Below the pieces are notes generated by a model. The model made no database searches. It was not told where the DNA came from and worked only from the letters and a program-made list of their open reading frames with translations. Below, piece by piece: positions 3,416 to 30,779 of a stretch of DNA of 64,000 bases. Position numbers and translations under genes: made by a program. Each line of letters begins with the position of its first letter. Position 1 is the first letter of the stretch. The DNA lies in IMG/VR virus record IMGVR_UViG_3300036859_000186, positions 12,345-76,344 of that record; one strand, written 5' to 3'. Source of the stretch: a virus.

Positions 3416-3815
3416 GAGTATTCCTAGGTCTTCGTTTGACTCCAGAACGCCCCAAAGCAAGTATTTCTTTAGCACGTTCTTGCCGTCTATGACTAAGCCA
3501 AGGCCACATGTAAGCTATTACAGCTTGGACATACTCAAAGCTGGTTACTCGCCAAGCCCATTGGGATTTTCTGGTTTTGATTGTTTCGTAGCTATAAATT
3601 CGAGGGGGTCGGTAGTAGATATTTCCACAACCAAGGATATGCTGAAGTCTAATGAGCAAATCTTTGTCAGACAACTGCATACCCAAGCTTACACCCTTGC
3701 CTTGGACACTAAACCATCCTTCACCTTCGAATAAGCCAGCGGCCCAAATGACATCCTCTCTTGAGGAGAAAGGCTTAACAGCATCTAGTATAACTGAGTT
3801 CGTGTCTATTTCCAT
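3402..3815 (-). CDS. LAGLIDADG homing endonuclease (single motif)
   Basis: WAAGLFEGEG motif, then LGCGNI; AT-rich; has its own upstream promoter. Confidence 0.85.
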   Translation of the reverse strand: MEIDTNSVILDAVKPFSSREDVIWAAGLFEGEGWFSVQGKGVSLGMQLSDKDLLIRLQHILGCGNIYYRPPRIYSYETIKTRKSQWAWRVTSFEYVQAVIAYMWPWLSHRRQERAKEILALGRSGVKRRPRNTHAKT

Positions 3816-3865: not shown

Positions 3866-4312
3866 CTACCATCGCTCCCACCCAGGTAGCTGAATTTCGG
3901 TGTGGCACTTTGGGCACTGGTTCATGGGCCAGCCACCCTTGACTTGATTATCACGGGTGAATTCGAACTTCATGCCGCAAGGACATTGAACAATGGACAG
4001 CTCCATGTTCATTTCCTGAACGAGTTTGATGCACTTCGCGGCCATGGCCTTGTCGTAGCAGATGACAATAGGCTTTTCCAGGCCCTTGTCGGGGTCAGGT
4101 CCTACAAACCACCCTTCCCAGACACCGTAATACATCTGGCTGCCACATGAGCCACACATGTGGCGAGTTTGGGGGTCATGGAAGCCGTCATAGTAGCCCT
4201 GAGCATCAAGGTAGCAGCTGCGGCCGCAATGCCTACACTCCACGAGATACTTGTCTCGCTCCTTTTCAATGAAGCGGGTGACTAGGCTGCCTCTTTTCTC
4301 TGTCCAAATCAT
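3866..4312 (-). CDS. Hypothetical Zn-ribbon protein
   Basis: CRHC, CGSC, CPC and CPKC motifs; GGGAGG RBS. Confidence 0.65.
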   Translation of the reverse strand: MIWTEKRGSLVTRFIEKERDKYLVECRHCGRSCYLDAQGYYDGFHDPQTRHMCGSCGSQMYYGVWEGWFVGPDPDKGLEKPIVICYDKAMAAKCIKLVQEMNMELSIVQCPCGMKFEFTRDNQVKGGWPMNQCPKCHTEIQLPGWERW

Positions 4313-9138: not shown

Positions 9139-10248
9139 TTAACCCTCATCATCCCCAATGAGCGGAGCATTATTCCAAGCAATACGCTCATCGGGCTGGA
9201 GTGCTTGAGGAGGAGCCGCAGGTTGCGGCATACGACCCTCTTCAAGAATCATCCGACGAAGTTGCTCCATTGCCAGGGCATGATCTTCTTGCTGTTGTGC
9301 TTGGATTTCACCTCGTCCGATTCCCGCCCATTCCCGGCGGTTCAGCACTGGTCGTGGATCATCCGGCTCAAGCCGATCTCGCTCAAATGGAGCAGGTTCG
9401 GGGAACGGTTGAGGGGGTGCTGGCATATGGAATACCGCTGCACCACCACGTCCTACTGCACGACCGGCCCGACCAACCTGTGCAGGTCGTGGGACATCAA
9501 AGGGACCATCGAGGTCCAGGCCCAAGCGACGGCCCGCTACGGCTCCACCGAATTGTGCATCAGGTGGTCGCACCGGCTGAGGAAGCGGTTGCCCGTCCTC
9601 GGTGTGCTGACCGCAGTTGACCTTCTTCGAGTGCAGATTCTTGTAGCCTCGACCCAACGTGACTGGCGCTTCACAGAAGTCACATGCCACAGCTTGGGGT
9701 CGAACACAGTGGTGGCAGTAGAGGATGGTCCGCCCATCATCCCGACCCACAGTGACCATTTCACCCTCGTTTAGCTTCCGGGAGCAAACGCCACACTGAG
9801 TTTCGGTGAGATTGGAGGCCGCCAACTTGGCCATCTCGTCGGGTCGCAGGAGAACTTGACGCAACTGACGGATGACCTTCCCAGACAGAGTGTTGGCTGG
9901 AAATGGAAGCTGAAGGACCGCAGCGAGTTTGTCGATGAGGTCTCCATCCTCTCCTTTGTATTCCTGCCCAAGCTGCTCCAGAGCAAGGTTGATCATGGTC
10001 TTCCACGAGGTCCGACCCGGATCTTCGTCCGTGCCGTCGTAGAACTGGAGATGACCCCAGTTGCCGAACTTGAAGACCCCGTCCAACTGTTTGTAAGGGT
10101 CCACATAGTCTCGTGAACTGAACCGCCCGTCCTTGTAACTACGCCAGACGTTGGCGTGGACATCCTCAAAGCGTGCGCCAGCACCGTGCTCCAGGTAGAG
10201 CATGGCGATAACAGCTCGCTTCAGGTAGTCGTTGTAAAGCCTGATCAT
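9139..10248 (-). CDS. Hypothetical protein with Zn-finger (CGVC/CHHC/CDFC) inside the ligase cluster
   Basis: Start MIRLYND after an AGGGAGG RBS; Pro-rich C-terminus. Confidence 0.7.
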   Translation of the reverse strand: MIRLYNDYLKRAVIAMLYLEHGAGARFEDVHANVWRSYKDGRFSSRDYVDPYKQLDGVFKFGNWGHLQFYDGTDEDPGRTSWKTMINLALEQLGQEYKGEDGDLIDKLAAVLQLPFPANTLSGKVIRQLRQVLLRPDEMAKLAASNLTETQCGVCSRKLNEGEMVTVGRDDGRTILYCHHCVRPQAVACDFCEAPVTLGRGYKNLHSKKVNCGQHTEDGQPLPQPVRPPDAQFGGAVAGRRLGLDLDGPFDVPRPAQVGRAGRAVGRGGAAVFHMPAPPQPFPEPAPFERDRLEPDDPRPVLNRREWAGIGRGEIQAQQQEDHALAMEQLRRMILEEGRMPQPAAPPQALQPDERIAWNNAPLIGDDEG

Positions 10249-10258
10249 TGTTCCTCCC

Positions 10259-11473
10259 TTACAACCGTCCTTGAAAATGGACCCCACGGACGAAGTCGTT
10301 TCGGCGTCGTTCTCGCTCCGACTCACAATCTGGCATTACACCGGATGCGAGCTGTTGTTCTAATGGAAGGTCCCGGTGCCGTCCTGCGACCCATCGTTGG
10401 GCAGAGCGAGCCACGACCCCTGCTGGCGGAGTTCGTCTCTCAGCCATCTCAGGAATTTCGGGAATTGATGGATCGGTGGCGGGGGCCGCATCGCCGGTCC
10501 AGTGTTTCTGAGCGGCGGCAGAGTTCCCCCCTGCCGCACTTTTGTAATGGGCGGGTAGAACCCCTAGTGGATCAGGGTTTTGCCGCCCTTCTGCTCCAAC
10601 TTCGTTTGCATCACGAACAAGGCTTCCAAGTCTTTGTGATACGCCTTCTTCGCCGCCTTCCACTTCCTCCGACCGATCTTCTTCGCCCGATACAGCCTCG
10701 TCGCCTCGGCGAAAGGTTGTCCCAGGCGGGAGGGAACCTCCGGTCCCCTTAGTCCGTTTCGTGGATTCTTGTGAGGCCCCAGGGCTCCTGGACCCATTCT
10801 TGTCCGTTCCAGTGCTGTCTCCCGTTGCCCCCACCGTAGGGCGGTCATCGTCCTTGCGACCTCCCTGGTTGTTCACATATCCCACGTTCCGGGATACGCC
10901 CCGAAACTCCCAGTGCTTGTTGCTGCACCACACCTCCTCACTCATCGACCAGGGTCCGCCGAACAATTCCAGCTGGCCCTTGGGCGTGAAGACGACGACC
11001 TTCTCGTCGATCATTTCGAGGATGCCAAGACCGTAGTGATGGGCGAGCCAGGCCATCGTGCGGCTGTCGCTCCACTTCCCGGAGGGAAGCTTGAATCCCA
11101 CGTTCTTGACGGCGGCTTCAAGGGCAACGTCCTTGTATTTGCCCCAGTGGCCGTTGTGAAACAGCACCGGATTGGGTCCTTGACCCTCGATGGTTGTGGT
11201 CGCGTTCTCGTCCACCACGAACGGGTGGGTGAGGAAGCGAGATGGCCCACCGCAGCTTGCGATGCGAAAGTGGAGCACGTAAGGCAGCGGAATCTCTTTG
11301 GCAAGGTCCTGGATTTCCCCAAGTTCCATGCCCTTCTTCCACTGCACCCAGGGCTCACCCTTGGGACCCTCGACACGCCAAGCGGCACCGGCCCCCTCAG
11401 CGTTCGTTTCGTAGGCCCTCTCGATCATGCTCTCGGTTGGGCGCTTCTTCTCTGCAATGAAAATGACACACAT
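10259..11473 (-). CDS. Class II glutamine amidotransferase (Ntn hydrolase) with long low-complexity tail
   Basis: N-terminal Met-Cys, N.EG.G, HFRIAS, THPF, LFHNG and SDS motifs. Confidence 0.9.
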   Translation of the reverse strand: MCVIFIAEKKRPTESMIERAYETNAEGAGAAWRVEGPKGEPWVQWKKGMELGEIQDLAKEIPLPYVLHFRIASCGGPSRFLTHPFVVDENATTTIEGQGPNPVLFHNGHWGKYKDVALEAAVKNVGFKLPSGKWSDSRTMAWLAHHYGLGILEMIDEKVVVFTPKGQLELFGGPWSMSEEVWCSNKHWEFRGVSRNVGYVNNQGGRKDDDRPTVGATGDSTGTDKNGSRSPGASQESTKRTKGTGGSLPPGTTFRRGDEAVSGEEDRSEEVEGGEEGVSQRLGSLVRDANEVGAEGRQNPDPLGVLPAHYKSAAGGNSAAAQKHWTGDAAPATDPSIPEIPEMAERRTPPAGVVARSAQRWVAGRHRDLPLEQQLASGVMPDCESERERRRNDFVRGVHFQGRL

Positions 11474-13522: not shown

Positions 13523-14563
13523 TCATGATCGAGCCACCGTCTTCTGGAGGAAGTTTTCCCATCCGCACTCGTGGCCCTCGGGCAGCGTCGTCCAATGCTT
13601 CATGGGATCATCAGGGAACCATGCTTCGAGTCCGTCGGTATCGATCTTGGCAACGAACTTCTGGAACTGCTTCAGTTCGTGACCAGCCGATAGCCCTCGG
13701 TCCGTATTTCCTCCGACGTGGGCTTCGAGGAATTGGGAGAACTTCTCGAAGTTTGCCTTGGCAAGCCCCACGTCATTGAGGTTGATGGCCCGTCGAACCC
13801 TTGGGAGCGGCACCATTCCACGGAGAGTCTTCTCCGCTTCCCAGCGCTTCTCGCCCATGATGTCGCTCACCAAACGCCCCAACCCCATCACGAAGGACAT
13901 GAGCGGGTAAGCTCGAAGCCAGGTGTTGGAGAGCGTTCGGTATTCGACGCCGAAGGGTTGCTCACGGAACTCACCAGCCCGTCCGTAGACGCGCCGACGA
14001 GTTCGCATGAGAGGGTGTCGGTCAAACAGCACCGCTGTGTTGCCGATCACGATGTCACAGAGCGCAACGAAGCGCTCATAGCCATCCTCCTCGTGAAGGA
14101 GTTCGTTGATGTTGCCGAAGTGCAGGTGCCCACCAGCGGACCGCGTTCGATACGTGAACGGGTTCACACGGACACCAACCTGCCGCTTGTAAATGCTCTT
14201 GCTTGGATTGCACCCAAGCATCTTGACCCGATCAGGCATGGCGTCCATGTCCCGTTTCGGGATGCGAATCACCGGAGTCCAACAGACCGTGAGGTCGGTG
14301 TCTTCCAGTTTGTGCTGAAGGCGACGCATGATGTCGGCCATCATATTGCCAATCTCAGCACGACAGAACGCTGCCTGTGGGTTGATCTCCAGCTGGATGC
14401 CGTCTCGGACGATCTTGCCGAGCCCCTTGAGTTTCATCCCTGCTTCTGGAATCAGCTCGGACGATGGAACGATGTGACCGTTCCGCGCCAAGAACAACTC
14501 TGGGTCCGAACCGAACGATGGATCGGAGTTGTTCTCCACCAATTTCGCATACTGCAAAGCCAC
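13523..14563 (-). CDS. phiEco32-like COOH-NH2 ligase type 2
   Basis: GSDPELFL, DGIQLEINP, GCNP, RSAGGHLHFG, RRRVYGRAGEFR, GVEYRTLSN.W. Confidence 0.92.
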   Translation of the reverse strand: MALQYAKLVENNSDPSFGSDPELFLARNGHIVPSSELIPEAGMKLKGLGKIVRDGIQLEINPQAAFCRAEIGNMMADIMRRLQHKLEDTDLTVCWTPVIRIPKRDMDAMPDRVKMLGCNPSKSIYKRQVGVRVNPFTYRTRSAGGHLHFGNINELLHEEDGYERFVALCDIVIGNTAVLFDRHPLMRTRRRVYGRAGEFREQPFGVEYRTLSNTWLRAYPLMSFVMGLGRLVSDIMGEKRWEAEKTLRGMVPLPRVRRAINLNDVGLAKANFEKFSQFLEAHVGGNTDRGLSAGHELKQFQKFVAKIDTDGLEAWFPDDPMKHWTTLPEGHECGWENFLQKTVARS

Positions 14564-14632
14564 GACTTCCTCCCCGCCGCGAAAATCGCGGCACCAACGC
14601 TGCCTTTACTCAGCACTGGCTTGTGTGAAATG

Positions 14633-14697
14633 TGTGGACAAGAGATTGCGAGGGACCATTTTTATCGCCAAAGATAACGGTCCCAATTCGGCCCACA
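14633..14697 (-). ncRNA. Y RNA-like element 1 (Ro60-binding-type stem)
   Basis: UGUGGGCCGAAUU GGGACC GUUAUC...GGUCCC...CUUGUCCACA; intergenic, about 500 nt downstream of rsr; flanking pairing extends to 14621..14715. Confidence 0.75.
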
Positions 14698-14768
14698 ACG
14701 GTTTCTGACACACAAAGGGATTTCAACGGCCCAGTCTAAGGCCCCTTGTAGCTGACTCCGCCGACTGA

Positions 14769-15197
14769 CTAGTAACGTTCTGTCGTCTTGCTGACTTTCC
14801 CTTCCTTCGTCCACTGCGCGATCAGCTTGTTCAGCTGAGTGTAGTCCGGGTTCCACACCACCACGGTTGAGCTGTGGGGAGGATGCACCGGATTCTTGAC
14901 GAACTCAGAGCGAATGACCGCTCCGAGCTTGTGCTCGGTGACGAACGCCATGAAGGCGTCCGCATAGAACTTGTGTTCCCCGAGCCACTTCTTGTAGTTC
15001 GTGCCCCAGTCCGTCACGTCGGCGAGACACAAGATGATGCACGGCGACCGCATACCCTTCTTGAGGGCGGCAGCCAGATACGTCTCAAGACTGTCGGCAT
15101 GGCACAGCCCGCCGATCTCCTGGACGCCACAGTTCTCGACGTAACCCGTTTGTCCCATGGTCAGCGCTCTCCTCGGTGAAAGTGATGGCTCATACAT
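14769..15197 (-). CDS. Hypothetical 'CCG' family protein, translationally coupled to rsr
   Basis: TAATG overlap with the rsr stop; NCGVQEIGGL...F.AFV....LGAV......NP; paralog of 7014..7367. Confidence 0.7.
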   Translation of the reverse strand: MYEPSLSPRRALTMGQTGYVENCGVQEIGGLCHADSLETYLAAALKKGMRSPCIILCLADVTDWGTNYKKWLGEHKFYADAFMAFVTEHKLGAVIRSEFVKNPVHPPHSSTVVVWNPDYTQLNKLIAQWTKEGKVSKTTERY

Positions 15198-16801
15198 TAG
15201 ACTCTCTCCGCGATGAAGTCGCTGACGATCTGGGGAGCGGCAGAATCGAATCCAGCCACGTCCAGCGTGCGACGGTCGTCCGGGTCGGCGATGGTGAAGT
15301 TCGTCGAGGTCATACCCATGACCACTTCGCAAGCGGCCGGGACGCCCATCTTCTGGCGATACTGACGGAGGGCTTGCGACGGATGGATGGCACCGGCGTA
15401 GGTCTCGTTGTCGGTGATGATGACGAAGCCATCGACCTCAACGCGGTTTTCCATGGCCCACAGGACGGGCTGAGCGCAGTCGGTGCGGCCGAAGTTGTTG
15501 CGCTGTGCAGCTCGGCACACCTCATCGAGGCGCATCTTGGGGGTGATGCCGAGGTCCACGAAGCGGTCGCAGAACCCGAACGTGTAGTAGTCCTTCTCGA
15601 CCTTGGCGGTTGCCATCGCCATAGCAGCAGCACCCTCACAGGCACTCAACGGCATGTTGGCAATTGCGGCTGTCCGCATCGAGCCAGACACGTCGATGCC
15701 GAAGACGATCCGTTTGCCGGTCGGCTTCAGAGACTTGAATGCCAGGTAGAACGCATCATCGAGAGCGTCCACAACAGCAGGCACTGGCTTCCACGCACCA
15801 TCACCCCTGACGCCGTGACCAGACGCGTAGGTCTTGAGGGCGATGAGGATCTCGATGGGGTGGACGCGTGCCTTGTTCAGCCATTCCTTGTCACCAAGGA
15901 CAGCGACAACCTTGCGCGAGGCGTCCGAGAGGGGCGCGAGAAGGCCACACTTGGAGAGGTTGCCCAGGTTGCGGATCATCGCAGTTGCAGGCATCTTCTC
16001 CAAAAGAGCAGCCCACACGTCGGGGTCCTTCAGGAATTCGGTGGGGACCATCTCTCGCGTGAGGCCGTGATTCTGGATGAGTCGGCAGAGGTCACGGGCT
16101 GACTCGGCTGACTTGGCAGCCTCAAAGCCTACGATGACCTGGGGAAGCGTGGGTCCGTCTGCCTTGTGTCCCTCGATGCCATCAACGCACCATTTGAAGA
16201 TAGCGTTCCGAGCTTCATCTGAAGTCTTCGGGTGCGCCAATCTGAGGACATCCGCATTGGACCAGCCGTCCCTCGACTGATACTTGACGACGTGTTGGGC
16301 GAGCTTTTCCGTCGGAAGGTCAAGATACCAGTTCGCCAGGGAACTCCGAAGGCCGCGCCCCAACCCACGAAATGTCGTGACGAAGGCCATGAAATGAAAG
16401 AGGTGCGTGGGGATTCGGCAGACCTTCGGGAGAGCAGCCAGTGCCAGCTTTCGAGTGGCAGGATCTGCAGCAGACGCTGCAAGAGCCAAGGCGAAAATCG
16501 CAGGATCGTTCTTCGGTGCTCGTCCTTCATCGGATACCTCCACGATGGTGCGGACCACTCTGGCACCATCCGCTTCGATACACCGGATGGTTCGTGCCGC
16601 ATTCTCCCTCGTCAGTTTCTGAGGAGACGCGTAGTAGCTCCCACCCTCACTGCCGAGGATCAGGAACCGCAGGAACGCTGCGAAGTCGTCAAGGGCATAG
16701 ACGTAGCCCCCGGCGCTGTTCTGAACCTGAGCCTCACCCAGGAGTGGTGAAGTCTGAGGCTGGGCAACACGCGGCCCAATCGAGCTGAACGGTCTCTTCA
16801 T
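15197..16801 (-). CDS. rsr: Ro60 / TROVE-domain RNA-binding protein (Rsr) with vWA domain
   Basis: NSAGGY, RFLILGSEGGSYY, GRAPK, PTHLFHF, KYQSRDGWS..DVLRLAHPK, AMIRNLG, IDVSGSM (MIDAS), TDNET, DVAGFD. Confidence 0.96.
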   Translation of the reverse strand: MKRPFSSIGPRVAQPQTSPLLGEAQVQNSAGGYVYALDDFAAFLRFLILGSEGGSYYASPQKLTRENAARTIRCIEADGARVVRTIVEVSDEGRAPKNDPAIFALALAASAADPATRKLALAALPKVCRIPTHLFHFMAFVTTFRGLGRGLRSSLANWYLDLPTEKLAQHVVKYQSRDGWSNADVLRLAHPKTSDEARNAIFKWCVDGIEGHKADGPTLPQVIVGFEAAKSAESARDLCRLIQNHGLTREMVPTEFLKDPDVWAALLEKMPATAMIRNLGNLSKCGLLAPLSDASRKVVAVLGDKEWLNKARVHPIEILIALKTYASGHGVRGDGAWKPVPAVVDALDDAFYLAFKSLKPTGKRIVFGIDVSGSMRTAAIANMPLSACEGAAAMAMATAKVEKDYYTFGFCDRFVDLGITPKMRLDEVCRAAQRNNFGRTDCAQPVLWAMENRVEVDGFVIITDNETYAGAIHPSQALRQYRQKMGVPAACEVVMGMTSTNFTIADPDDRRTLDVAGFDSAAPQIVSDFIAERV

Positions 16802-16989
16802 TGCATTGTCTCCCCTCTGTTGTGTTGAACGAGTTTCTGAGCTTGCGTTGCCGCCGCAATCATGGCCTGATCAGACAGCTCGCGCCACACCCTTGCCCAT
16901 TGCGACAAGGGAGCCCGAACGTCCTTGGGCATGCCAGCGATGGCATCTTCAACCGCTCTCTTCAACTCTTGATCGGTCACGGCCCCCTC

Positions 16990-17409
16990 CTAGTCGGTCA
17001 TGTCCTGGTCTACATCGAGCATCCCAGGCGCATCGCCCAGGATGAGAGTGTTTTGATTCGTTCGCACGTCCCCATCGTTGAAGCGGATGAAGAAGTGGTC
17101 AGGATTGATTGTGCACCTGTAGTAAGTGAGTTTCGAGCCCTCAATAAGTGGAGGGTCCACCTTGATTACGTGGTGGCACGTAGGGCATGACAACTTGGCT
17201 AGACAGTTTTGCACATGACGGTGCCACGCATCGCCAAAGCGCGTTATCCCCATGGGCTGCCCAGGAACAATCGTGGGCGCATTGGCTATTGGAGTTATCC
17301 TCTGGAGGAAGTCTCTGGCCGGTTCCCGGTATGGAGGGAGGGCCAGCTGAGTAGGGCGGCGTTCCACCCTCGGCTTCCTCTGTTCCTCCTTGAAGTCGTC
17401 CATCTTCAT
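16990..17409 (-). CDS. Hypothetical Zn-ribbon protein
   Basis: CPTC...C...H; ORF track. Confidence 0.6.
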   Translation of the reverse strand: MKMDDFKEEQRKPRVERRPTQLALPPYREPARDFLQRITPIANAPTIVPGQPMGITRFGDAWHRHVQNCLAKLSCPTCHHVIKVDPPLIEGSKLTYYRCTINPDHFFIRFNDGDVRTNQNTLILGDAPGMLDVDQDMTD

Positions 17410-17813
17410 TTCTACCGCCTCTCCTCATCGACACGCAGTAGCTCTTCCTGTCGCCGTCGCCGTCTTGCGATGGGCACTAGGTATTGTCGCTCCAGTGACT
17501 CCAACGCGTTCCTTAGTTCCAGGGACGCATCTATCGCATCTTCGCGGCCTCCATTTTCTTGGGCAAGAGCATATTTGACGAAAGCAACAAGGAGTCGTTC
17601 TTGGCGCTGGTTCATGGTTAGCTCTCCTTTTGGCATGCGCCAACATCCCCATGAGCTGGTGTCAGGTCGGCCCCACAGTAGGGGCACAGGCCAGCCTCAA
17701 CACATACTCGGATGTAGCGCTCCAGCTCACGGCGCTGACTTAGACGATCCTCTGCCTTCAGGAGGATGCGAGTATCGAGTATGGGGCTCTTCAACATGAG
17801 CTACCTCAAAAGT

Positions 17814-17881
17814 GCGTCGGATAAATTTCGTAGGCAGCGGTTTTATCTTAGAAGGATAACGCTACCAGAGCGACCCGACAC
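17814..17881 (-). ncRNA. Y RNA-like element 2
   Basis: GUGUCGGGUCG...GGUAGC GUUAUC...GCUGCC...UUUAUCCGACGC; same motif as element 1 with compensatory changes. Confidence 0.72.
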
Positions 17882-17889
17882 GTCAAATT

Positions 17890-17994
17890 TGGTGGAGGCT
17901 TGATAGGCATATGGACAGAGCGGAGCGGTGATGAGGAGACACAATGCTCGTCAATCGTTGCTGCGTAATCTGCCGCCAACCCACAACAGCCCCC
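17890..17994 (-). ncRNA. Rod-like RNA with Ala-type acceptor stem and encoded CCA
   Basis: 5' GGGGGCU / 3' AGCCUCC-A-CCA (G3.U70, A73); interior is a long imperfect hairpin with no D or T loop; sits between two Y-like RNAs with 8-nt spacers. Confidence 0.55.
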
Positions 17995-18002
17995 ATAAAT
18001 AG

Positions 18003-18103
18003 TGGAGCCAAGGACAAGTGTTTGCAGAGGGGTATTCCTGTGCGCTGCCTTTCGGCCCGCTTCTAGGTGCCAGATAACCCTCATGCGTCGGCCCTAGGCT
18101 CCA
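18003..18103 (-). ncRNA. Y RNA-like element 3
   Basis: UGGAGCCUAGGGCCGA...GAGG GUUAUC...(GCC GAAA GGC)...CCCCUC...CUUGUCCUUGGCUCCA. Confidence 0.72.
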
Positions 18104-18249
18104 AGCTTACTTCCTTGATTCTGGATACAGCACGTCGAGAACTTTCTTTTGCTCACCCTTCGCAAGGTCGGGGAGCATGGTCAGTAGGAGCCTTTCTAGC
18201 TCCTTCACGCGTGCCTCCAGAACTTGAACGTGCTTGAAATAGTCCATGG

Positions 18250-18693
18250 CTATTCATCCCTTATGGTCTTGTGCCAGAAGGCAACGGTGTTCTTGGTCCG
18301 CTTGTTGAAAAATTCGAACCCCTTCCACCAGCCAAACTTTTCGAGGATGTGAGCCTCAGCTGGGTTGCCAGTCATGTTGACCGTAGCAGCGAGGCTCGAA
18401 TATCCGAACTCTCTGGCGATGGCTTCCTTGAAGGGCATCAGTGCTTGAGCAATACCCTGCTTTTGATGCTTCGTTTCGACCCATGTCTTGGTGCTCACGA
18501 GCACACCGCAACAGTTGACCTGCTCGACGAGGGTAAAGCCGCATGCCCGTTCGTTGTTCAGGAAGCCCGTGAACTCCAACAGGAACGGACTCTTGCGGAT
18601 GCGGATCTGCACGTCGCCCCACTCGTAGAACTCCTCACTGAGGGTTCTAATAGATGCAACGGCCTTTGGCACGTCACGAATTGAGAATGGCAT
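18250..18693 (-). CDS. GNAT-family N-acetyltransferase
   Basis: Motif A V...HQKQGIAQAL; ATV...N....ILEKFGW; also has a CCG motif. Confidence 0.8.
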   Translation of the reverse strand: MPFSIRDVPKAVASIRTLSEEFYEWGDVQIRIRKSPFLLEFTGFLNNERACGFTLVEQVNCCGVLVSTKTWVETKHQKQGIAQALMPFKEAIAREFGYSSLAATVNMTGNPAEAHILEKFGWWKGFEFFNKRTKNTVAFWHKTIRDE

Positions 18694-18832
18694 TAGAGGG
18701 TCCTCCGCAATGCTTCGCAGACCATTTCGATCTTGGTCTGGATGTCTTCCAGATCAGCGATCTGATCTAGGGTGGCGATGCGTTCTTTCAGATCGAGGGT
18801 AAATGGAGCGTGGCGCATGGCACCATTGGGGG

Positions 18833-18907
18833 TGGCGGGACGGCGTGGACTCGAACCACGAACCTTTCGTTTTGGAGACGAACACTCTGCCATTGAGCTA
18901 CCGACCC
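18833..18907 (-). tRNA. tRNA-Trp (CCA)
   Basis: GGGUCGG UA GCUC AAUGGCA GAGU G UUCGU CU-CCA-AA ACGAA AGGUU CGUGG UUCGAGU CCACG CCGUCCC G CCA. Confidence 0.93.
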
Positions 18908-19611
18908 CTTTCGCAAAATGCGCGAAGTAAAATTCCCTAGATTTTGCCACCAAGACGAACGATTTCGAGTTCGACTTCCTCAGCGGCTTTAGTTATGGCC
19001 TTTGCTACACACTGATGGCCATCTTCATCTGCTTTCGTGGCAAGGCGAGCCAAGACATCCCAATAGCCACTATCAGTCACGATCTTATCGAGTTCCACTT
19101 TGTGTTGGTGTCGCATGATTCTCTCGACAGTCAGGGCTATTTCTACAAGCACAATTCTTTGCAGATTGTGTGCCTCTGAGAATCCTCTGACACTCCGCGA
19201 CGATGGCGTCTTCGGTTGACAACGAGTAGTGCTCCATCTCACAGCCTCCAGTGTAGACCACGTAGAAGACCAGAGCGATGAAGACTACCCGATGCCAGTG
19301 AATCATCTACTTGACCGATCCCAGCTGAATGAGCGGCGCCGTCGAGGTGAGAAGTGACGCGATGAACAATCCTGCCCAGAACTTCGATCTCATGACATGA
19401 GCCTCCAGAGGTAACGAAACAAGCGGACGAACCAGAAGCCTGGCGCGGCCACAGCGAGTATGACACCCGCCAACACAGCGGCATCATTGGGTCGGCTGAT
19501 CAGGTAGAGCGCTTGGGTGAGCGCCAGTGATGTGAGCAGCACGAGAAGGACTTCACGAAGGACCCGAAGGACGGACCAGTATGTCGGCATAGTGTCTCCA
19601 AACACGAAAAA

Positions 19612-19688
19612 GGGAGGTGACATGGATGAGTGGTTGTCCAGGGAACATTTGGAAGGTAACCCTAGAACGCCGACCCATGTCATCTCCC
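19612..19688 (-). ncRNA. Y RNA-like element 4
   Basis: GGGAGAUGACAUGGGUCGG...CUAGG GUUACC...CCCUGG...CUCAUCCAUGUCACCUCCC followed by U5; intergenic. Confidence 0.68.
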
Positions 19689-19710
19689 CAGCGGGGCACA
19701 ACGGCAACTT

Positions 19711-20529
19711 CTAACGACTTGGCATGAGAATTGGATGACCCTCGTCACCAACCTCCTTGTAAAGCGCTTCTTTCAGCTGATACATAGCTCGTGCCCACAG
19801 CGCTACTGCGTCCGGTGAGGCCGCTTGCAGCACCATTGGGAATTCCCGAGCTGTCTTCTTGAAGTAGTTCTCTGCCCAACGACGGGCATCCTTCGGCTTG
19901 ATTCGACAGCCCTCAGGCTTCGTGAGCATTCGAGTCATGTCGTTCAGGTTGTCGGCCCGGTCTAGAGTCTTAAGTGAGGCCGCGTCCTGATCGTTCGATA
20001 TCTTCGAGTAGTAGACCACCTTCATGGCCGCTTGAAGGTCTTCGGGCGTCTCGTCCTTCCAATCCTTCGTGAGGAGCATGACAAGATCGACCGTTCGGTC
20101 TGGGAACTTTAACGCAATGAGGTCGTGCTGCATGATATAAGTGTCTTCCACCACATCGTGGAGCAATGCTGCTGCCTGTGCTTCCTCATTGAGGCCGATG
20201 TCACGAGCCATCTCGAACACCCGAATGGGATGCACGATGTATGGGTCATCGAAGGCTTTACGCTTCTGTGAGATGTGTGCAGCCGTCGCACACTCCAGCG
20301 CTACATTGATGAGCGTATCGCCTTCAGGTTCAGCCACAGGAATCTCCGTATAGGGTGGTCGCGTCCTAATCAAGTGGTGCTTGCAGACAGGGCAGTCGCC
20401 CCAGCTGTAAGTCTCTGAATGGACGGGGTGAGCGATGGGGATTAGGCACCACTCACACCACAATTCATCTGCCATAGCACTAGTTCCTTCGAGGAACAAA
20501 AGCTTTTCGTCGAGTGAGCGCCAAGGCAT
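19711..20529 (-). CDS. HD-domain small alarmone ((p)ppGpp) hydrolase, RelA/SpoT-HD/Mesh1-like, with N-terminal Zn ribbon
   Basis: AHISQKRK...PYIVHPIRV...AALLHDVVEDT...LTK...KTLDRADNL. Confidence 0.88.
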   Translation of the reverse strand: MPWRSLDEKLLFLEGTSAMADELWCEWCLIPIAHPVHSETYSWGDCPVCKHHLIRTRPPYTEIPVAEPEGDTLINVALECATAAHISQKRKAFDDPYIVHPIRVFEMARDIGLNEEAQAAALLHDVVEDTYIMQHDLIALKFPDRTVDLVMLLTKDWKDETPEDLQAAMKVVYYSKISNDQDAASLKTLDRADNLNDMTRMLTKPEGCRIKPKDARRWAENYFKKTAREFPMVLQAASPDAVALWARAMYQLKEALYKEVGDEGHPILMPSR

Positions 20530-20969
20530 CAGTGCTTGATGTCGTCGCCGCTGATGTCGATGTCCACCGCTGGCAACACCTCAGCCACATCGCTCTCGAC
20601 AACCTCACCATCGATCACTGGCTCGGGCTTCTGTCCAGCCTTCGGATCTTTCGGACGAGGCCGATTGAAGTAGGTCGTCCAGATGACCTCACGGTCTTCC
20701 TTCGAGAACGTCTCGTCACCAGTTGCGGCAAGAGCGAAGGTGATGGCCGATTTACGGCCCTTTTCCTTGTTGAAGACATCCTGACGAGAGCACACCGCAG
20801 TCGCAGAGGTGATGAGGTTCGCCGTGACGAGCTTGCCGTCCTTCTGAACGGTCTCCCAGATGTCACAGATCGTCGTTCGACGCCCCGGTCGCTTTCCGCG
20901 TGGTTTCTCTTGCTGGCGTTCGAATGCCAGAGCAATCGTTCTGTTCTTTGGCAATGTGACGTGTATCAC
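20529..20969 (-). CDS. Conserved phage hypothetical protein
   Basis: AVCSRQDVFNKEKGRKSA motif; AGGAGG RBS. Confidence 0.7.
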   Translation of the reverse strand: MIHVTLPKNRTIALAFERQQEKPRGKRPGRRTTICDIWETVQKDGKLVTANLITSATAVCSRQDVFNKEKGRKSAITFALAATGDETFSKEDREVIWTTYFNRPRPKDPKAGQKPEPVIDGEVVESDVAEVLPAVDIDISGDDIKH

Positions 20970-21017
20970 GGCTGACTCCTCCTGATAGGCGCATTTAACG
21001 CCGCGCCCTTAGCGGCT

Positions 21018-21146
21018 TGGTGGGTCGTGGTGGATTCGAACCTGCCCAGATCCCTCTCCCGTGGACATCTATCGTTACCCCACTACTGTTGCCGAGGAGG
21101 CCCCAGCAGTGACGATAGCCCAGCCGTCCCAGCTGGCTGACGACCC
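21018..21146 (-). ncRNA. tRNA-like RNA with greatly extended anticodon arm
   Basis: Acceptor GGGUCGU/ACGACCC-A-CCA; D-like arm GCC..GG..GGC; T loop GG-UUCGAAU-CC; anticodon arm replaced by a long hairpin (CUAUCGU/ACGAUAG, CACUGCUG/CAGUAGUG). Confidence 0.65.
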
Positions 21147-21150
21147 AAAC

Positions 21151-23666
21151 TTACTCGCCCTTATGACATAGGGTTGAGATGTATCGGCGTTCCTTCTGAT
21201 GGTTGTGGGCTGGCCCTTCGCACCATGGACACCACATCCATGCGTTGACGGAGTTCTGCGACATGGGGCGTAGGACGTGCCAGATGTGACCACAGACAAC
21301 CCACTTTAGGTATTGCAATGGTAGATACCAATGCAGATACAGAGCGAGTCGCTCTTGCCACGTCTTCTGACGCTTCCCAATGCAGCCACACTTAGCACAG
21401 TGGGGCACAGGGGCGTCGTGGCATTCGTCGGTGACGAGTGGGCCGCCACACTCGCAGGTTCCGATTCTATCGGTCACGGTCCTTGTCACCTTTCCAACCC
21501 CGCTTGAGCTGTTCGAGGTTGTATTTTGCCATGATGTCGTTCAATGCTCGGATGGTCATGAAAACTGCCAACTCGTTGGGTTCACCATAGTGGAGCTGGT
21601 CCCACAGCTTCTGAGACTCATCCTTGAGCAGTTCATGGGCGGGATGCTTCAACAGTGGCATTGCTTCTCTCCTTATCCCAACGCCAGACACCGTCCTCGT
21701 AGATCATGACGGTGATGCAGTCGAACTTGCACTTGTGGATGGTGCCGTTGGCCGGGGGCTCGTTCTGTGTGCTCATAAAGTCCCCAAGGGACGAGAGGCA
21801 ACACCTGAAAAGCCCACCTTGAGCAATGCCGTAAGGCACGCGGCTACCCATTACCATTCCTCATCGTTGTCGGGAAAGGCTCGGGTCTCCTTGGCATAGC
21901 GCTTGCACTTGGTGCAGAAAGCAGGCCAACAGTCCCCAGTCATGCCAAGTAACACACGATGGCTCTCACCGTCGTCGCAGGTGCCGCTTTCCAACTCTTC
22001 GCTGGTGGTCAGGAGAGCGGGATCAGGAGGCTTCTCATCGTTGTCACAGGCTCCGGCCTCTATGACTTCGAGGGCCTCACGCATGTCATCGAGGTTCATC
22101 ACCACATCACCTTTTTACAGCGCCTACATTGTGCGAACGCCTCAGAGAGGAGCACCGGCCCATGAAAGAGCGGTGGATACCACACCGGATCGTGTCCCCA
22201 CACATTGCATTGGGTCATGAGGGGCATCAGCTCCCAATAGAGCAAGAGCGCAATGAATGTGAGGACAAAGATACCGAGCAGGTCCATTAGCCCTTCCGTC
22301 GATTCTGGCGGTTGATGGCACGCTTCGACAAGATGCGGCCACGGTTGTGGCGCTTCGATGCCTGACGAGCAGCCCAGCCCACACCAGCCTTCTCAGTGCC
22401 AATGCGGTTCAGTTCCCGCTTGATTCGTTTCTCTCTTTTCCGCATGTCAGCCCCGGTCTCGCTGGTGAAGGTCGTCGGTGTATTCGACATCGTCGATCTT
22501 GAAGTTCTCCAGCACCTTCGTGAGGGCGATCTTGGCATCGACCAGTTGGGCTTGCGTCTGTTGAGCGGCCTTAATCTGGTCGTCGATCACGATGATTTGA
22601 CGGTCGAGGGCCAACTGAGCATCACGAAGCTTGAGAAGGGCACTGTTGTTCATCGTAAACACGGTAGTCTCCTCCTTGAGAAAAAGGCAGCACTGATCGT
22701 CATTGGGGCACAACCTCACCCCATCCCTACAAATGAGGGTGCAGCGCAGCGTCATGAGAGGTTGAACCTCACCTTGCCGAAGTCCACGACACGGCCGAAG
22801 ATGCGGCGTCTAGCGAGGGAGCCCATGCTCTCTTCCATAGCTTCGGCACAGTCGCGCAGCATGATGTATTCCTCAACGGAGACGGGCACAGATATTTGGA
22901 GGCCACGGCCGCCGTTGGCCATCTTTTGACGAACGCTCTTAACGTGGCGCTTAGTCGAGGGTAGGCCACCCAAACGCCGACGAAAGACTTCTAAGAGCAT
23001 GTCCGGTCTCTGCCTCAGAAAGCCTGTCAAAATCTTCCTCTCCGTCTTCGAGCCTGAGAGCCTGTTGACGATGGTTGAGAGGCTCTGACCCTTCATCAGA
23101 TCCTTCGACCTCAAGAGCCCTGAGCTTTCCAAGCTCGCGTTCGAGTTCGAAGTAGTCGTCGGGGCTGAGTTTGTCTTCTTCGCCATGCCTGAGCACGTCC
23201 TCGATGTCTGTGATACGCTGAGTGTATCGGCTAGGCACGGTCGCGTTCCTTGAGCCGGGGGGCACGAACCTTGTGGATGCGTTCGACAAGGAGCTTGTGG
23301 TTGACCTGGGGCTGAAGCTCCTCGCCGCATCGATCGACGAGGATGGCTAGTCCTTCGGGGCTGACCCTCAACTCCTTGACAATCTCGGTGCCCTTACTGA
23401 CGAGGGTTTCGCCGTTGGGCAGCAGGTTTCTGTAGGTGACGGGTCGCACAATGGCGATCACCTTTCGCATAGGGACGCCGAGCTTTGTCACTTCTTGTGT
23501 TACTTCGCAACGGAACATCACGAACTCCTTGTAGCTTCATCTCATGAAGGTGTTGCTGCTCACTATCATGCAAGAGATATGCACGATTGTGAGGATTTAA
23601 GTCTCCTTGCAGTATGAGGGCTGCAGCGTTCTTGTCTCGCACGACCTTTGGAAAGTGTGACCACAT
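21151..23666 (-). other. Run of small hypothetical ORFs, many with CxxC motifs
   Basis: Overlapping or coupled ORFs at 21151, 21467, 21851, 22099, 22287, 22447, 22752, 22951 and 23231; no recognisable domains. Confidence 0.55.
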
Positions 23667-23677
23667 GAGAACCTTAT

Positions 23678-23863
23678 TGGAGTGCTGGGGGTTCAGACTC
23701 TCAAACTTTAGGGACCTATCCGCCTACGAACGACTTCCACCATTGTCGAGCGAACCCAACACACGTGTCCATCGAGTGACAGCTATAATAATGGAATCCC
23801 ACTCAATTACCATGGTCAGTGAGCTTCGATTCCCAAGGCAAATCCTCTCTACTCCAGCTCCCC
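23678..23863 (-). ncRNA. Candidate structured RNA with Ala-like terminal stem
   Basis: 5' GGGGAGCUGG pairs with 3' CCAGCACUCC-A (G3.U70); internal helices UUCCAUUAUU/AAUGGUGGAA and GGAAUC/GAUUCC; non-coding gap. Confidence 0.4.
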
Positions 23864-23865
23864 TT

Positions 23866-23947
23866 GTTATCGCAAATGCTTTACCGCTAAGCTACCAGCC
23901 CCATTGCTGGGGCCGGGGTGGGTTCGAACCACCGACCTTTTGCGAAC
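23866..23947 (-). ncRNA. Circularly permuted tRNA-like RNA (YrlA-type tRNA-mimic domain)
   Basis: UCGCAAA AGGUC GGUGG UUCGAAC CCACC CCGGCCCCA-GCAA-UGGGGCUGG UA GCUU AGCGGUA AAGC A UUUGCGA. The T arm precedes the D arm and the acceptor stem is closed by a GNRA loop. Confidence 0.85.
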
Positions 23948-23990
23948 TTGGGCACGCTTCGTTCAAGAATGATTGCCCGTCCCCCCAACC

Positions 23991-30613: not shown

Positions 30614-30779
30614 TGCCGGGGCGGTGCACACAAACTCTTCCCCGGCCCCAATCTATTTAGCAGCGTCCGAAACTACCTTGATTGGTCAACACCAAGCGAC
30701 GCCTCCGGTGAATCCCGGCCCTGGTTGGTGATCCTAACTCCAGGCTGCTAACTACCTTTTAATCACGAGCATCTCTCGC

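What the first reader, a model, noticed from the sequence alone, without database searches (positions are those of the whole stretch)
14633..19688. Four dispersed copies of a covarying Y-RNA-like motif
Minus-strand elements at 14633-14697, 17814-17881, 18003-18103 and 19612-19688 all read outer stem-GGGYCG-N-inner stem-GUUAYC-variable loop-inner stem-linker-YUYRUCC-outer stem. Stem sequences differ between copies but pairing is kept: GGGACC/GGUCCC, GGUAGC/GCUGCC, GAGGG/CCCUC, CUAGGG/CCCUGG. The GGYCG/UYRUCC bulged helix resembles the Ro60-binding site. All four are short and lack a tRNA-like domain. Two are followed by U-runs, so they could instead be cis-acting Rsr-responsive attenuators in the early transcript.
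Basis: partly seen in the sequence, partly recalled or inferred. Interest (0 to 1): 0.85.

Follow-up and report, generated by a model that had tools for sequence, protein, structure and literature searches.

The report
Phage Ro60 partner Y RNAs
A soil phage that carries its own Ro60 (Rsr) gene also carries several short genes for Y RNAs, the small RNAs that dock onto this ring protein; this is a real but already known kind of system, here in unusually many short copies.

Summary
All four minus-strand elements are present at the stated coordinates. They share an exact GGGYCG-N10-GUUAYC core, found 4 times in the 76-kb genome. Their two stems covary.

They lie in intergenic gaps around a full-length phage Ro60/Rsr gene (15197-16801). 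A covariance model built from three copies found the fourth. It also gave 103 matches in 80 other Rsr-encoding viral contigs, all on the Rsr strand. A refined model gave 189 viral matches, all on the Rsr strand, and 215 bacterial matches, 212 of them on the Rsr strand.

The refined model found two more copies in this phage, outside the window, inside a tRNA gene array with 7-8 nt spacers. This favours processed small RNAs over attenuators.

The handle matches the published bacterial and phage Yrl scaffold (GNCGAA motif, YUAY loop start). It also matches the metazoan Y/sbRNA layout (GGUCCG-N10-GUUAUC).

The four copies are short, YrlB-like Y RNAs without a tRNA-like domain. A separate YrlA-like tRNA mimic lies at 23853-23956.

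Verdict: a new member of a known kind. Earlier notes of this scan describe similar Ro60-plus-RNA sets in other phages. One open lead is that some apical loops look like anticodon loops.

The parts
14633..14697 (-). Y RNA copy e1 (65 nt). It has an outer stem with the GGGCCG/UUGUCC bulged helix, a 7-bp inner stem GGGACCG/UGGUCCC, and an apical hairpin UUAUC-UUUGGC-GAUAA. It lies in the 205-nt gap after the gene downstream of rsr.
   Evidence: R3 70.7 bits, E=1.2e-13; fold z=-2.9.
17814..17881 (-). Y RNA copy e2 (68 nt). It has the GGGUCG/UUAUCC helix, an inner stem GGUAGCG/CGCUGCC, and an apical 5-bp stem UUAUC/GAUAA with the 7-nt loop CUUCUAA. UUUU follows it.
   Evidence: R3 61.2 bits; R1, built from e1 alone, finds it at E=0.0015; loop pattern.
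18003..18103 (-). Y RNA copy e3 (101 nt). It has a longer outer stem UGGAGCC/GGCUCCA, the GGGCCG/UUGUCC helix, and an inner stem GAGGG/CCCUC. A 40-nt apical insert carries a GAAA-capped hairpin and no T-loop.
   Evidence: found as a held-out copy by R2 (E=0.0014); R3 39.2 bits.
19612..19688 (-). Y RNA copy e4 (77 nt). It has a long outer stem, the GGGUCG/UCAUCC helix, an inner stem UCUAGGG/CCCUGGA, and a 16-nt loop starting UUACC. UUUUU follows it.
   Evidence: R3 50.4 bits; Rfam RF01656 (nematode sbRNA) 26.9 bits, E=0.029, below the gathering score; fold z=-3.8.
15197..16801 (-). rsr, a phage-encoded Ro60 orthologue of 534 aa and the presumed protein partner of the RNAs.
   Evidence: Pfam TROVE 4.2e-40 and vWA_Ro60 1.6e-60. 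Full-length matches to D. radiodurans Rsr 2nvo (7.6e-134), RO60 9nen (1.5e-126) and Xenopus Ro60 1yvp (2.1e-124).
23853..23956 (-). YrlA-like RNA. It has a T arm, a closed acceptor-like hairpin and a D arm in the permuted YrlA order. Its putative Ro motif is degenerate: GCCCAAG in place of GNCGAA.
   Evidence: Rfam RF02553 YrlA 34.8 bits (gathering score 69), E=4.8e-5 in 4 kb and 7.6e-4 in the whole window; fold z=-3.1; intergenic.
18833..18907 (-). tRNA-Trp(CCA) gene within the same co-oriented cluster (context).
   Evidence: ARAGORN and Rfam tRNA 64 bits.

Best explanation
The four elements, plus two more copies outside the window, are genes for short Y RNAs. These are small non-coding RNAs that dock onto the phage's own Ro60/Rsr ring protein.

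Shown here:
- Each RNA closes its 5' and 3' ends into a helix that reads G-G-G-Y-[bulged C]-G on one strand and Y-Y-R-U-C-C on the other.
- Then come a short internal loop, a covarying 7-bp upper stem, and a loop that always starts UUAYC.
- The apex is variable.

Inferred from the Ro60/Y RNA literature:
- The bulged helix is the Rsr docking site on the outer face of the ring.
- The bound RNA gates access to the central cavity.
- The variable apex recruits or excludes a partner. The known partner is the host exoribonuclease PNPase, as in the D. radiodurans RYPER complex and in Thermus phage phiLo.
- Several RNAs with different apices would give the phage Rsr several specificities.

Inferred from gene arrangement:
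- The RNAs are made as parts of long minus-strand transcripts and cut out, as tRNAs are. Two copies lie in a tRNA array with 7-8 nt spacers.
- Rsr binding would protect the mature ends.

The biological role during infection is not known. It is probably remodelling or quality control of structured RNA, such as tRNA or rRNA, in a stressed host.
For: 1. A canonical Ro60/Rsr gene lies among the copies.
2. The motif is exact and not due to chance, and both stems covary.
3. The model built from three window copies finds the fourth. It also gives 103 matches in 80 Rsr-encoding IMG/VR loci, all on the Rsr strand and mostly within 0.5 kb of the gene.
4. In 73 of these matches, 95.5% of cells are paired against 40-47% when partners are slid. 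There are 351 double-sided changes.
5. A regex-plus-pairing scan made without Infernal finds 137 modules on the Rsr strand and 1 on the other strand.
6. Model R3 gives 189 matches in viral loci, all on the Rsr strand, and 215 in bacterial loci, 212 of them on the Rsr strand.
7. The same module lies just upstream of the annotated Ro gene in the phages Sparky, Alice, Cashline and FuzzBuster.
8. The module matches published Y RNA features. Bacterial YrlA/YrlB have the GNCGAA motif and a conserved YUAY at the start of the loop (PMC4201824). Nematode sbRNAs and vertebrate Y RNAs have UUAUC at the 5' end of the loop (PMC4450293, PMC4726728). The sbRNA consensus printed has the same GGUCCG-N10-GUUAUC spacing.
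9. Copies c5 and c6 lie in the array tRNA-Cys, Gln, Leu, c5, Phe, Ala-like, c6, Met.
10. All four window copies fill intergenic gaps.
Against: - There is no expression or binding data. No RNA run holds this DNA, so discrete RNAs and Rsr binding are inferred.
- None of the four reaches any Rfam gathering score. RF00019 (Y_RNA) gives nothing at E<=10.
- The strict bacterial motif GNCGAAN0-1G is not met. Only GNCG is constant, and the AA is present in e1 only.
- Alignments made by the covariance model lean towards its structure, although the slid controls and the regex scan argue against an artefact.
- No promoter-like or terminator-like site was called on the minus strand of this region.
Confidence: 0.85

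Rival explanations
1. Handle-plus-cargo display RNAs. The Rsr handle is a carrier, and the functional part is the apex. In a subset the apex copies a tRNA anticodon arm (e2: CUUCUAA, anticodon UCU; c6: CUCAUAA, anticodon CAU). It could then act as bait or decoy for enzymes that read or cut anticodon loops, such as anticodon nucleases or modification enzymes. This elaborates the Y RNA reading rather than replacing it.
For: - e2 has a 5-bp stem and a 7-nt loop of the form C-U-NNN-A-A.
- The c6 apex shares the 10-nt string CUCAUAAGCC with the anticodon arm of the adjacent tRNA-Met.
- Among 99 short viral forms, the apical loops of 68 hairpins have modes at 4 and 7 nt. Of 24 seven-nt loops, most of them on 5-bp stems, 13 fit Y-U-NNN-R, against 0.1 in shuffles.
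- The pattern recurs in bacterial loci, where 17 of 30 loops fit against 0.05 in shuffles, with varied middle triplets.
- Some long relatives carry a nearly whole, non-permuted tRNA body on the same handle.
- Earlier notes of this scan report the same pattern in other phages. These are leads, not independent evidence.
Against: - Only 2 of the 6 copies here have such an apex. e1 has a 6-nt loop, e4 an open 16-nt loop, and e3 and c5 have other hairpins.
- Any C-U-NNN-A-A loop equals some tRNA's loop, so identity with a tRNA loop is weak evidence.
- The conserved loop flanks could reflect shared ancestry of the UUAUC/GAUAA hairpin.
- No anticodon nuclease or target is known for the unknown host.
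Confidence: 0.2
2. Cis-acting elements in the early transcript. These would be Rsr-responsive attenuators or intrinsic terminators that control downstream genes.
For: e4 is a long G+C-rich hairpin followed by UUUUU. e2 is followed by UUUU and then a ribosome-binding site and ATG. All copies lie between co-oriented genes.
Against: - The terminator scan called none on the minus strand.
- e1, e3 and c5 lack U-runs; in c6 the U-run comes only after CCA.
- Two copies lie between tRNA genes with 7-8 nt spacers, where attenuation makes little sense.
- Relatives stand in arrays of many units back to back, with no ORFs between them. L052 has 14 R3 matches upstream of rsr.
- Conservation is concentrated in a protein-docking helix and a loop motif, not in a stem-plus-U-tract design.
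Confidence: 0.05
3. Structured intergenic repeats unrelated to Rsr. They would act as RNA processing or stabiliser hairpins, or be remnants of a mobile repeat, and lie near rsr by chance.
For: They are short, dispersed and palindromic. No direct evidence links them to Rsr in this phage.
Against: - In the Rsr-encoding loci examined from distant phages and bacteria, the module lies almost only on the rsr strand and usually within 0.5 kb of rsr; DNA without an rsr gene was not searched.
- The invariant positions match the published Ro60-contact motif.
- There are no target-site duplications or terminal inverted repeats, and the stems covary instead of being copied.
Confidence: 0.03

Closest known systems
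Bacterial and phage Y RNA-like RNAs YrlA/YrlB (Chen et al. 2013, 2014; Rfam RF02553; PMC4201824)
   Same: - They are encoded within a few kb of rsr on the same strand.
- The terminal stem carries a GNCG(AA) motif near the 5' end.
- A conserved YUAY begins the loop.
- There is more than one Y RNA per genome.
- They occur in mycobacteriophages. Model R2 hits the region just upstream of Ro in Sparky, Alice, Cashline and FuzzBuster.
- YrlB, and Yrn2 of D. radiodurans, are short hairpin forms without a full tRNA-like domain, like these four.
   Different: - None of the four has the T/AS/D tRNA-like domain that defines YrlA, and none matches RF02553.
- The AA of GNCGAA is not conserved here.
- There are six short copies, dispersed over 21 kb, two of them inside a tRNA array.
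- The tRNA-like module is on a separate RNA (23853-23956) with a degenerate handle.
Metazoan Y RNAs and nematode stem-bulge RNAs (Rfam RF00019, RF01656; Stein et al. 2005; Kowalski et al. 2015, PMC4450293)
   Same: - The layout and register are the same: GG-N-Y-C-G with a bulged C and a following G.U pair, 10 nt to G-UUAUC at the 5' end of the loop, and CUUG-N-CC on the 3' strand.
- e4 scores 26.9 bits against the sbRNA model.
- The phage Rsr is as close to vertebrate Ro60 as to bacterial Rsr.
   Different: - All four fall below every Rfam gathering score, and RF00019 gives no hit.
- The third helix position is G.U, not U-A.
- The upper stem lacks the GUG/CAC motif.
- There is no Pol III or La context.
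- The loops are far shorter.
Thermus phage phiLo Ro60 with Yrl1/Yrl2 (PMC12135203; PDB 9KOP, 9L5Y)
   Same: A phage encodes its own Ro60 and Y RNA-like RNAs next to it. The RNAs bind the phage Ro60 and host PNPase in vitro. This gives a tested precedent for the mechanism proposed here.
   Different: - The phiLo Ro60 is very distant from this Rsr (E=7e-10).
- It has two RNAs directly upstream of the gene, identified by a CGAA motif.
- No multi-copy dispersed family was reported, and no UUAYC motif was described in the passages read.
D. radiodurans Yrn1/Yrn2 with Rsr and PNPase (RYPER)
   Same: It has a long terminal stem with the Ro-binding box and several Y RNAs upstream of rsr. The Y RNA tethers Rsr to PNPase and gates substrate entry. 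This is the functional model used here.
   Different: Yrn1 carries T-arm-like features and three stem-loops. No sequence comparison with Yrn1 or Yrn2 was made here.

Membership tests
Y RNA (Ro60/Rsr-binding non-coding RNA, broad sense) | Encoded with or near a Ro60 orthologue, on the same strand in bacteria and phages | tested here: met
   rsr lies at 15197-16801 (-). e1 is 0.5 kb downstream, e2 and e3 are 1.0-1.3 kb upstream and e4 is 2.8 kb upstream, all on the minus strand.
Y RNA (Ro60/Rsr-binding non-coding RNA, broad sense) | 5' and 3' ends pair into a stem that holds a conserved helix with a single bulged C (the Ro60 site) | tested here: met
   All six copies read G-G-G-Y-[C]-G paired with Y-Y-R-U-C-C. 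The Y-R pair covaries (C-G 3, U-A 3). In 73 relatives G4 and G9 are invariant and the bulged C is present in 71 of 73.
Y RNA (Ro60/Rsr-binding non-coding RNA, broad sense) | Physically bound by Ro60/Rsr, with Rsr-dependent accumulation as a discrete small RNA | not testable with these tools
   No RNA run holds this DNA. EMSA, RIP and Northern blots are needed.
Bacterial Yrl scaffold (Chen et al. 2014) | GNCGAAN0-1G motif near the 5' end | tested here: inconclusive
   GNCG is present in all six copies. The AA is in e1 only (GCCGAAUUG, where two nt rather than 0-1 precede the next G). e3 has GCCGAC, c5 GCCGAU, e2 GUCGCU, e4 GUCGGC and c6 GUCGUU.
Bacterial Yrl scaffold (Chen et al. 2014) | Conserved YUAY at the start of the loop after the stem | tested here: met
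   UUAUC or UUACC follows the inner stem in all six copies. UUAYC follows it in at least 70 of 73 aligned viral relatives (two have C at the A position, one has A at the Y position) and in 137 of 148 bacterial relatives (PMC4201824).
YrlA (Rfam RF02553) | tRNA-like domain with T arm, acceptor-like hairpin and D arm | tested here: not met
   The four have no RF02553 match at E<=10 in 14000-20500 and no T-loop motif. They are 59-101 nt long, against 120-166 nt for the long class. A separate element at 23853-23956 has the domain (34.8 bits, below the gathering score of 69).
Metazoan Y_RNA / sbRNA (RF00019, RF01656) | Score at or above the family's gathering threshold | tested here: not met
   RF00019 gives no match at E<=10. 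RF01656 gives 26.9 bits against a gathering score of 38, for e4 only.
Intrinsic terminator / attenuator | G+C-rich hairpin followed directly by a U-run, at a position where termination controls a downstream gene | tested here: not met
   A U-run directly follows only e4 and e2; in c6 CCA comes first. The scan calls no minus-strand terminator in 14000-20600. Copies in the tRNA array argue against this role.

The most novel reading that the evidence does not exclude
The short Y RNAs are a modular display system. One conserved Rsr-docking handle carries interchangeable apical cargo. In part of the family the cargo copies a tRNA anticodon arm (here e2 with UCU and c6 with CAU, the latter matching the neighbouring tRNA-Met). 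A separate RNA at 23853-23956 copies the tRNA elbow. The phage Rsr particle would then present tRNA parts as bait for host enzymes that cut or modify tRNA, such as anticodon nucleases, or would guide repair of such tRNAs. A second, independent point is that the shared GG-N-Y-C-G / N10 / UUAYC register suggests that bacterial and phage Y RNAs and metazoan Y RNAs are homologous over the whole stem module, contrary to published statements.
Probability: 0.2. Interest if true: 0.8.

Novelty: new member of a known kind. Interest (0 to 1): 0.45.

Why it matters
Phage-encoded Ro60 with Y RNAs is known from mycobacteriophages and Thermus phage phiLo, so the core finding is not new.

Three things are useful beyond that.
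- The published searches found only the tRNA-like YrlA class and reported that short Y RNAs escape homology searches. The handle model built here from this phage recovers several hundred short and long Y RNAs next to rsr in phages and in many bacterial phyla, often in arrays of 5-14 genes.
- This phage shows Y RNA genes interleaved with tRNA genes. That points to tRNA-style processing.
- The invariant UUAYC at the start of the loop is the same motif reported as conserved in nematode and vertebrate Y RNAs. This suggests it belongs to the Ro60 particle itself rather than to a eukaryote-specific function.

Tried and rejected
- RNA evidence: no RNA holder is listed for this DNA. Only two soil-metagenome DNA runs hold it, one of them the probable source. 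Read laying was not used, because contigs cannot show RNA ends.
- Rfam at gathering scores found only two tRNAs in the window. RF00019 found nothing.
- RF02553 at gathering score found nothing even in the cultured Ro-encoding phages. Its threshold is therefore too strict to be a negative test.
- The promoter and terminator scan found nothing on the minus strand.
- A single-protein search of viral contigs with Rsr found nothing. The profile search worked.
- MAFFT alone misaligned the 3' strands. I built the seed alignment through a single-sequence model instead.
- The regex hit at 54103-54291 was rejected as chance. It has no CM support.
- Weak CM hits at 3701-3748, 9694-9745 and 61759-61802 were not pursued (E>2).
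- Pfam on ten neighbouring ORFs gave no family.
- The 2020 review PMC10870794 could not be read.
- I did not check the Y RNA-contact residues of Ro60, because I could not recall them reliably.

Full report
**What the window is.** The window is bases 12345-76344 of a complete 76,344-bp virus record with direct terminal repeats. The only runs that hold the DNA are soil metagenomes. No close relative exists among cultured phages. The region of the finding is a co-oriented minus-strand gene cluster with these members:
- an HD-domain protein (19711-20529);
- a GNAT acetyltransferase (18250-18693);
- tRNA-Trp (18833-18907);
- a 534-aa Ro60/Rsr with TROVE and Ro60-type vWA domains (15197-16801);
- a phiEco32-type COOH-NH2 ligase (13523-14563).

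The Rsr aligns over its full length with D. radiodurans Rsr (7.6e-134), an RO60 entry 9nen (1.5e-126) and Xenopus Ro60 (2.1e-124).

**The observation.** GGGYCG-N10-GTTAYC matches exactly four times in the whole genome, all on the minus strand. Shuffles give 0.71 matches even with one mismatch allowed. Each element fills an intergenic gap:
- e1 lies in the 205-nt gap 14564-14768;
- e2 and e3 lie in the 309-nt gap 17798-18106;
- e4 lies in the 120-nt gap 19591-19710.

Three of the four fold clearly better than shuffles (z = -2.9, -3.1 and -3.8); e3 is weaker at z = -1.9.

The common anatomy has six parts:
- an outer stem of variable length;
- the helix G-G-G-Y-[bulged C]-G-R paired with Y-Y-R-U-C-C;
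- a 3-nt linker;
- a 7-bp inner stem whose last G belongs to GUUAYC;
- a variable loop that starts UUAYC;
- a roughly 10-nt 3' linker, often CAA-N-CAC.

**Test against chance.** MAFFT misaligned the 3' strands. I therefore built a model from e1 alone with its structure (R1). It found e2 (E=0.0015) and e4. A model from e1, e2 and e4 (R2) found the held-out e3 as the best non-training match in 64 kb on both strands (25.8 bits, E=0.0014).

**Relatives.** A profile of Rsr homologues fetched 80 Rsr-encoding IMG/VR loci.
- R2, trained only on this window, gave 103 matches there. All are on the Rsr strand, most just upstream or downstream of the gene.
- In 73 matches (69 from these loci plus the window's own four), 95.5% of cells pair, against 40-47% after sliding. 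There are 351 double-sided changes and every inner-stem pair covaries. G4, G9, U25, U26 and C29 are invariant.
- A scan that uses only a regular expression plus eight required pairs found 137 modules on the Rsr strand and 1 on the other.
- R3, built from the 73, gave 189 matches in the viral loci, all on the Rsr strand. It gave 215 matches in 80 bacterial rsr loci from Chloroflexota, Armatimonadota, Verrucomicrobiota, Myxococcota, Planctomycetota and others, 212 of them on the Rsr strand.
- R2 also matches just upstream of the annotated Ro gene in the phages Sparky, Alice, Cashline and FuzzBuster. Y RNAs were published for mycobacteriophages (PMC4201824).

The module is therefore the general bacterial and phage Y RNA handle.

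**Two size classes.** Matches are bimodal, at 56-90 nt and 120-166 nt. Among long forms 27 of 38 viral and 28 of 32 bacterial matches carry a T-loop motif, so they are the YrlA class. Short forms mostly lack it. The four elements (59-101 nt) lack it and have no YrlA or tRNA match. They belong to the short class, the counterpart of the experimentally found YrlB and Yrn2. Chen et al. could not trace those RNAs by homology.

**More copies and processing.** R3 found two further copies in this phage outside the window, at genome positions 10923-11002 (45.2 bits) and 10662-10750 (30.8 bits).
- They lie inside a minus-strand tRNA array in the order Cys, Gln, Leu, c5, Phe, an Ala-like tRNA, c6, Met.
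- The spacers from c5 to tRNA-Phe and from c6 to tRNA-Met are 8 and 7 nt.
- The six copies together have 93.8% paired cells and 10 of 16 pairs with compensatory change.
- Related loci hold dense arrays. L052 has 14 matches in 2.3 kb upstream of rsr, with no genes between them.

These arrangements fit RNAs that are cut out of a precursor like tRNAs. M. smegmatis YrlA and YrlB are likewise processed from a single precursor. They do not fit attenuators.

**A tRNA-like partner after all.** I found a sub-threshold YrlA match at 23853-23956 (34.8 bits; E=7.6e-4 for the whole window). It has a T arm, a closed acceptor-like hairpin and a D arm in the YrlA order. Its handle is degenerate: the otherwise invariant G of the CG is a C. 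The phage therefore keeps the published rule of at least one tRNA-like Y RNA per genome, but on an RNA that may not dock in the usual way.

**Comparison with known families.**
- Chen et al. 2014 define GNCGAAN0-1G near the 5' end and a conserved YUAY that begins the loop. The four have GNCG and UUAYC, but not the AA.
- Kowalski et al. 2015 report UUAUC at the 5' end of the loop as conserved in nematode sbRNAs and vertebrate Y RNAs.
- The Rfam sbRNA consensus printed reads GGUCCG, then 10 nt, then GUUAUC. This is the same register as here. e4 scores 26.9 bits against that family, below its threshold of 38.
- From my own knowledge, human Y1, Y4 and Y5 have the same spacing.
- A review states that bacterial Y RNAs are not homologous with vertebrate ones. 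The shared register argues the other way, but I did not test this formally.

**Mechanism.** Three things are shown: conserved docking-helix geometry, covarying stems, and exclusive linkage to rsr. The rest is inferred from D. radiodurans, Salmonella, Xenopus and phage phiLo work:
- Rsr binds the bulged helix on its outer face;
- the RNA gates the cavity;
- the apex selects a partner such as PNPase;
- several apices give several specificities.

**Open lead.**
- e2 ends in a 5-bp stem with the loop CUUCUAA.
- The c6 apex shares CUCAUAAGCC with the adjacent tRNA-Met.
- In short relatives, apical loops cluster at 4 and 7 nt. Of the 7-nt loops, 13 of 24 viral and 17 of 30 bacterial fit Y-U-NNN-R, against at most 0.1 in shuffles.
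- Some long relatives carry an almost whole, non-permuted tRNA body on the handle.

This fits a display or bait role for tRNA parts, which earlier notes of this scan propose for other phages. Only two of the six copies here show it, and shared ancestry of the hairpin could explain part of the pattern. I give it about 0.2.

**Verdict.** The attenuator alternative is not supported. This is a new member of a known kind, with moderate added value.

Noticed in passing
L093:10662-10750 and L093:10923-11002 (minus strand; genome coordinates, 1.3-1.7 kb before the window start): Two further Y RNA copies of the same family lie inside a tRNA array in the order Cys, Gln, Leu, c5, Phe, Ala-like, c6, Met, with 7-8 nt spacers. 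c6 is followed by CCA, and its apex shares 10 nt with the anticodon arm of the adjacent tRNA-Met.
   Followed up: yes
window 23853-23956 (-): An intergenic YrlA-like RNA with a T arm, a closed acceptor-like hairpin and a D arm. It scores 34.8 bits against Rfam RF02553, below the threshold. C replaces the invariant G of the Ro motif.
   Followed up: partly
window 17890-17994 (-): A rod-like structured RNA lies between e3 and e2. It has a 7-bp terminal stem with G3.U70 followed by ACCA. Its interior (UGUGGGUUGG ... CUCUGUCCAUA) looks like a degenerate Y helix. It has no CM match, and its fold z-score is only -1.9.
   Followed up: partly
window 21012-21152 (-): A tRNA-like element starts GGGUCGU and ends ACGACCC-ACCA, with a GGUUCGAAUCC T loop. 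A roughly 50-nt hairpin stands where the anticodon arm should be. Neither ARAGORN nor Rfam calls it.
   Followed up: no
L093:10761-10831 (-): A tRNA-Ala(UGC)-like gene is called by Rfam (48.8 bits) but not by ARAGORN. By my reading of the sequence its acceptor stem is largely mismatched.
   Followed up: no
window 30615-30646 (+): A 32-nt hairpin lies directly after tRNA-Gly, on the strand opposite to rsr. It has a handle-like helix (GGGGCG / CUCUUCCCC) and a CAAACUC linker but no inner stem. R3 gives 16 bits, E=0.25.
   Followed up: no
window 18833-18907 (-): The phage tRNA-Trp starts with GGGUCGG, the same letters as the Y handle. It has a U4.U69 mismatch in its acceptor stem.
   Followed up: no
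L052:3640-5940 (+), an IMG/VR contig with an Rsr homologue: An array of 14 handle-bearing RNAs lies upstream of rsr. It includes classical permuted YrlA forms, short hairpin forms, and one (4178-4309) that carries a non-permuted tRNA body with an anticodon arm (Rfam tRNA positions 6-65).
   Followed up: partly
L094-L173 (bacterial rsr loci): Arrays of 5-12 handle-bearing RNAs lie next to rsr in MAGs of many phyla, for example L116 and L152. Among anticodon-like 7-nt loops, CUGUUAA and CUGUCA(A/C) recur. These are GUU and GUC, the queuosine-type anticodons.
   Followed up: partly
window 14633-14697 and L012:1849-1911: e1 and a Y RNA of an unrelated viral contig share the identical 22-nt apex GUUAUCUUUGGCGAUAAAAAUG, although their stems differ. 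The apical loop sequence itself therefore seems to be under selection.
   Followed up: no
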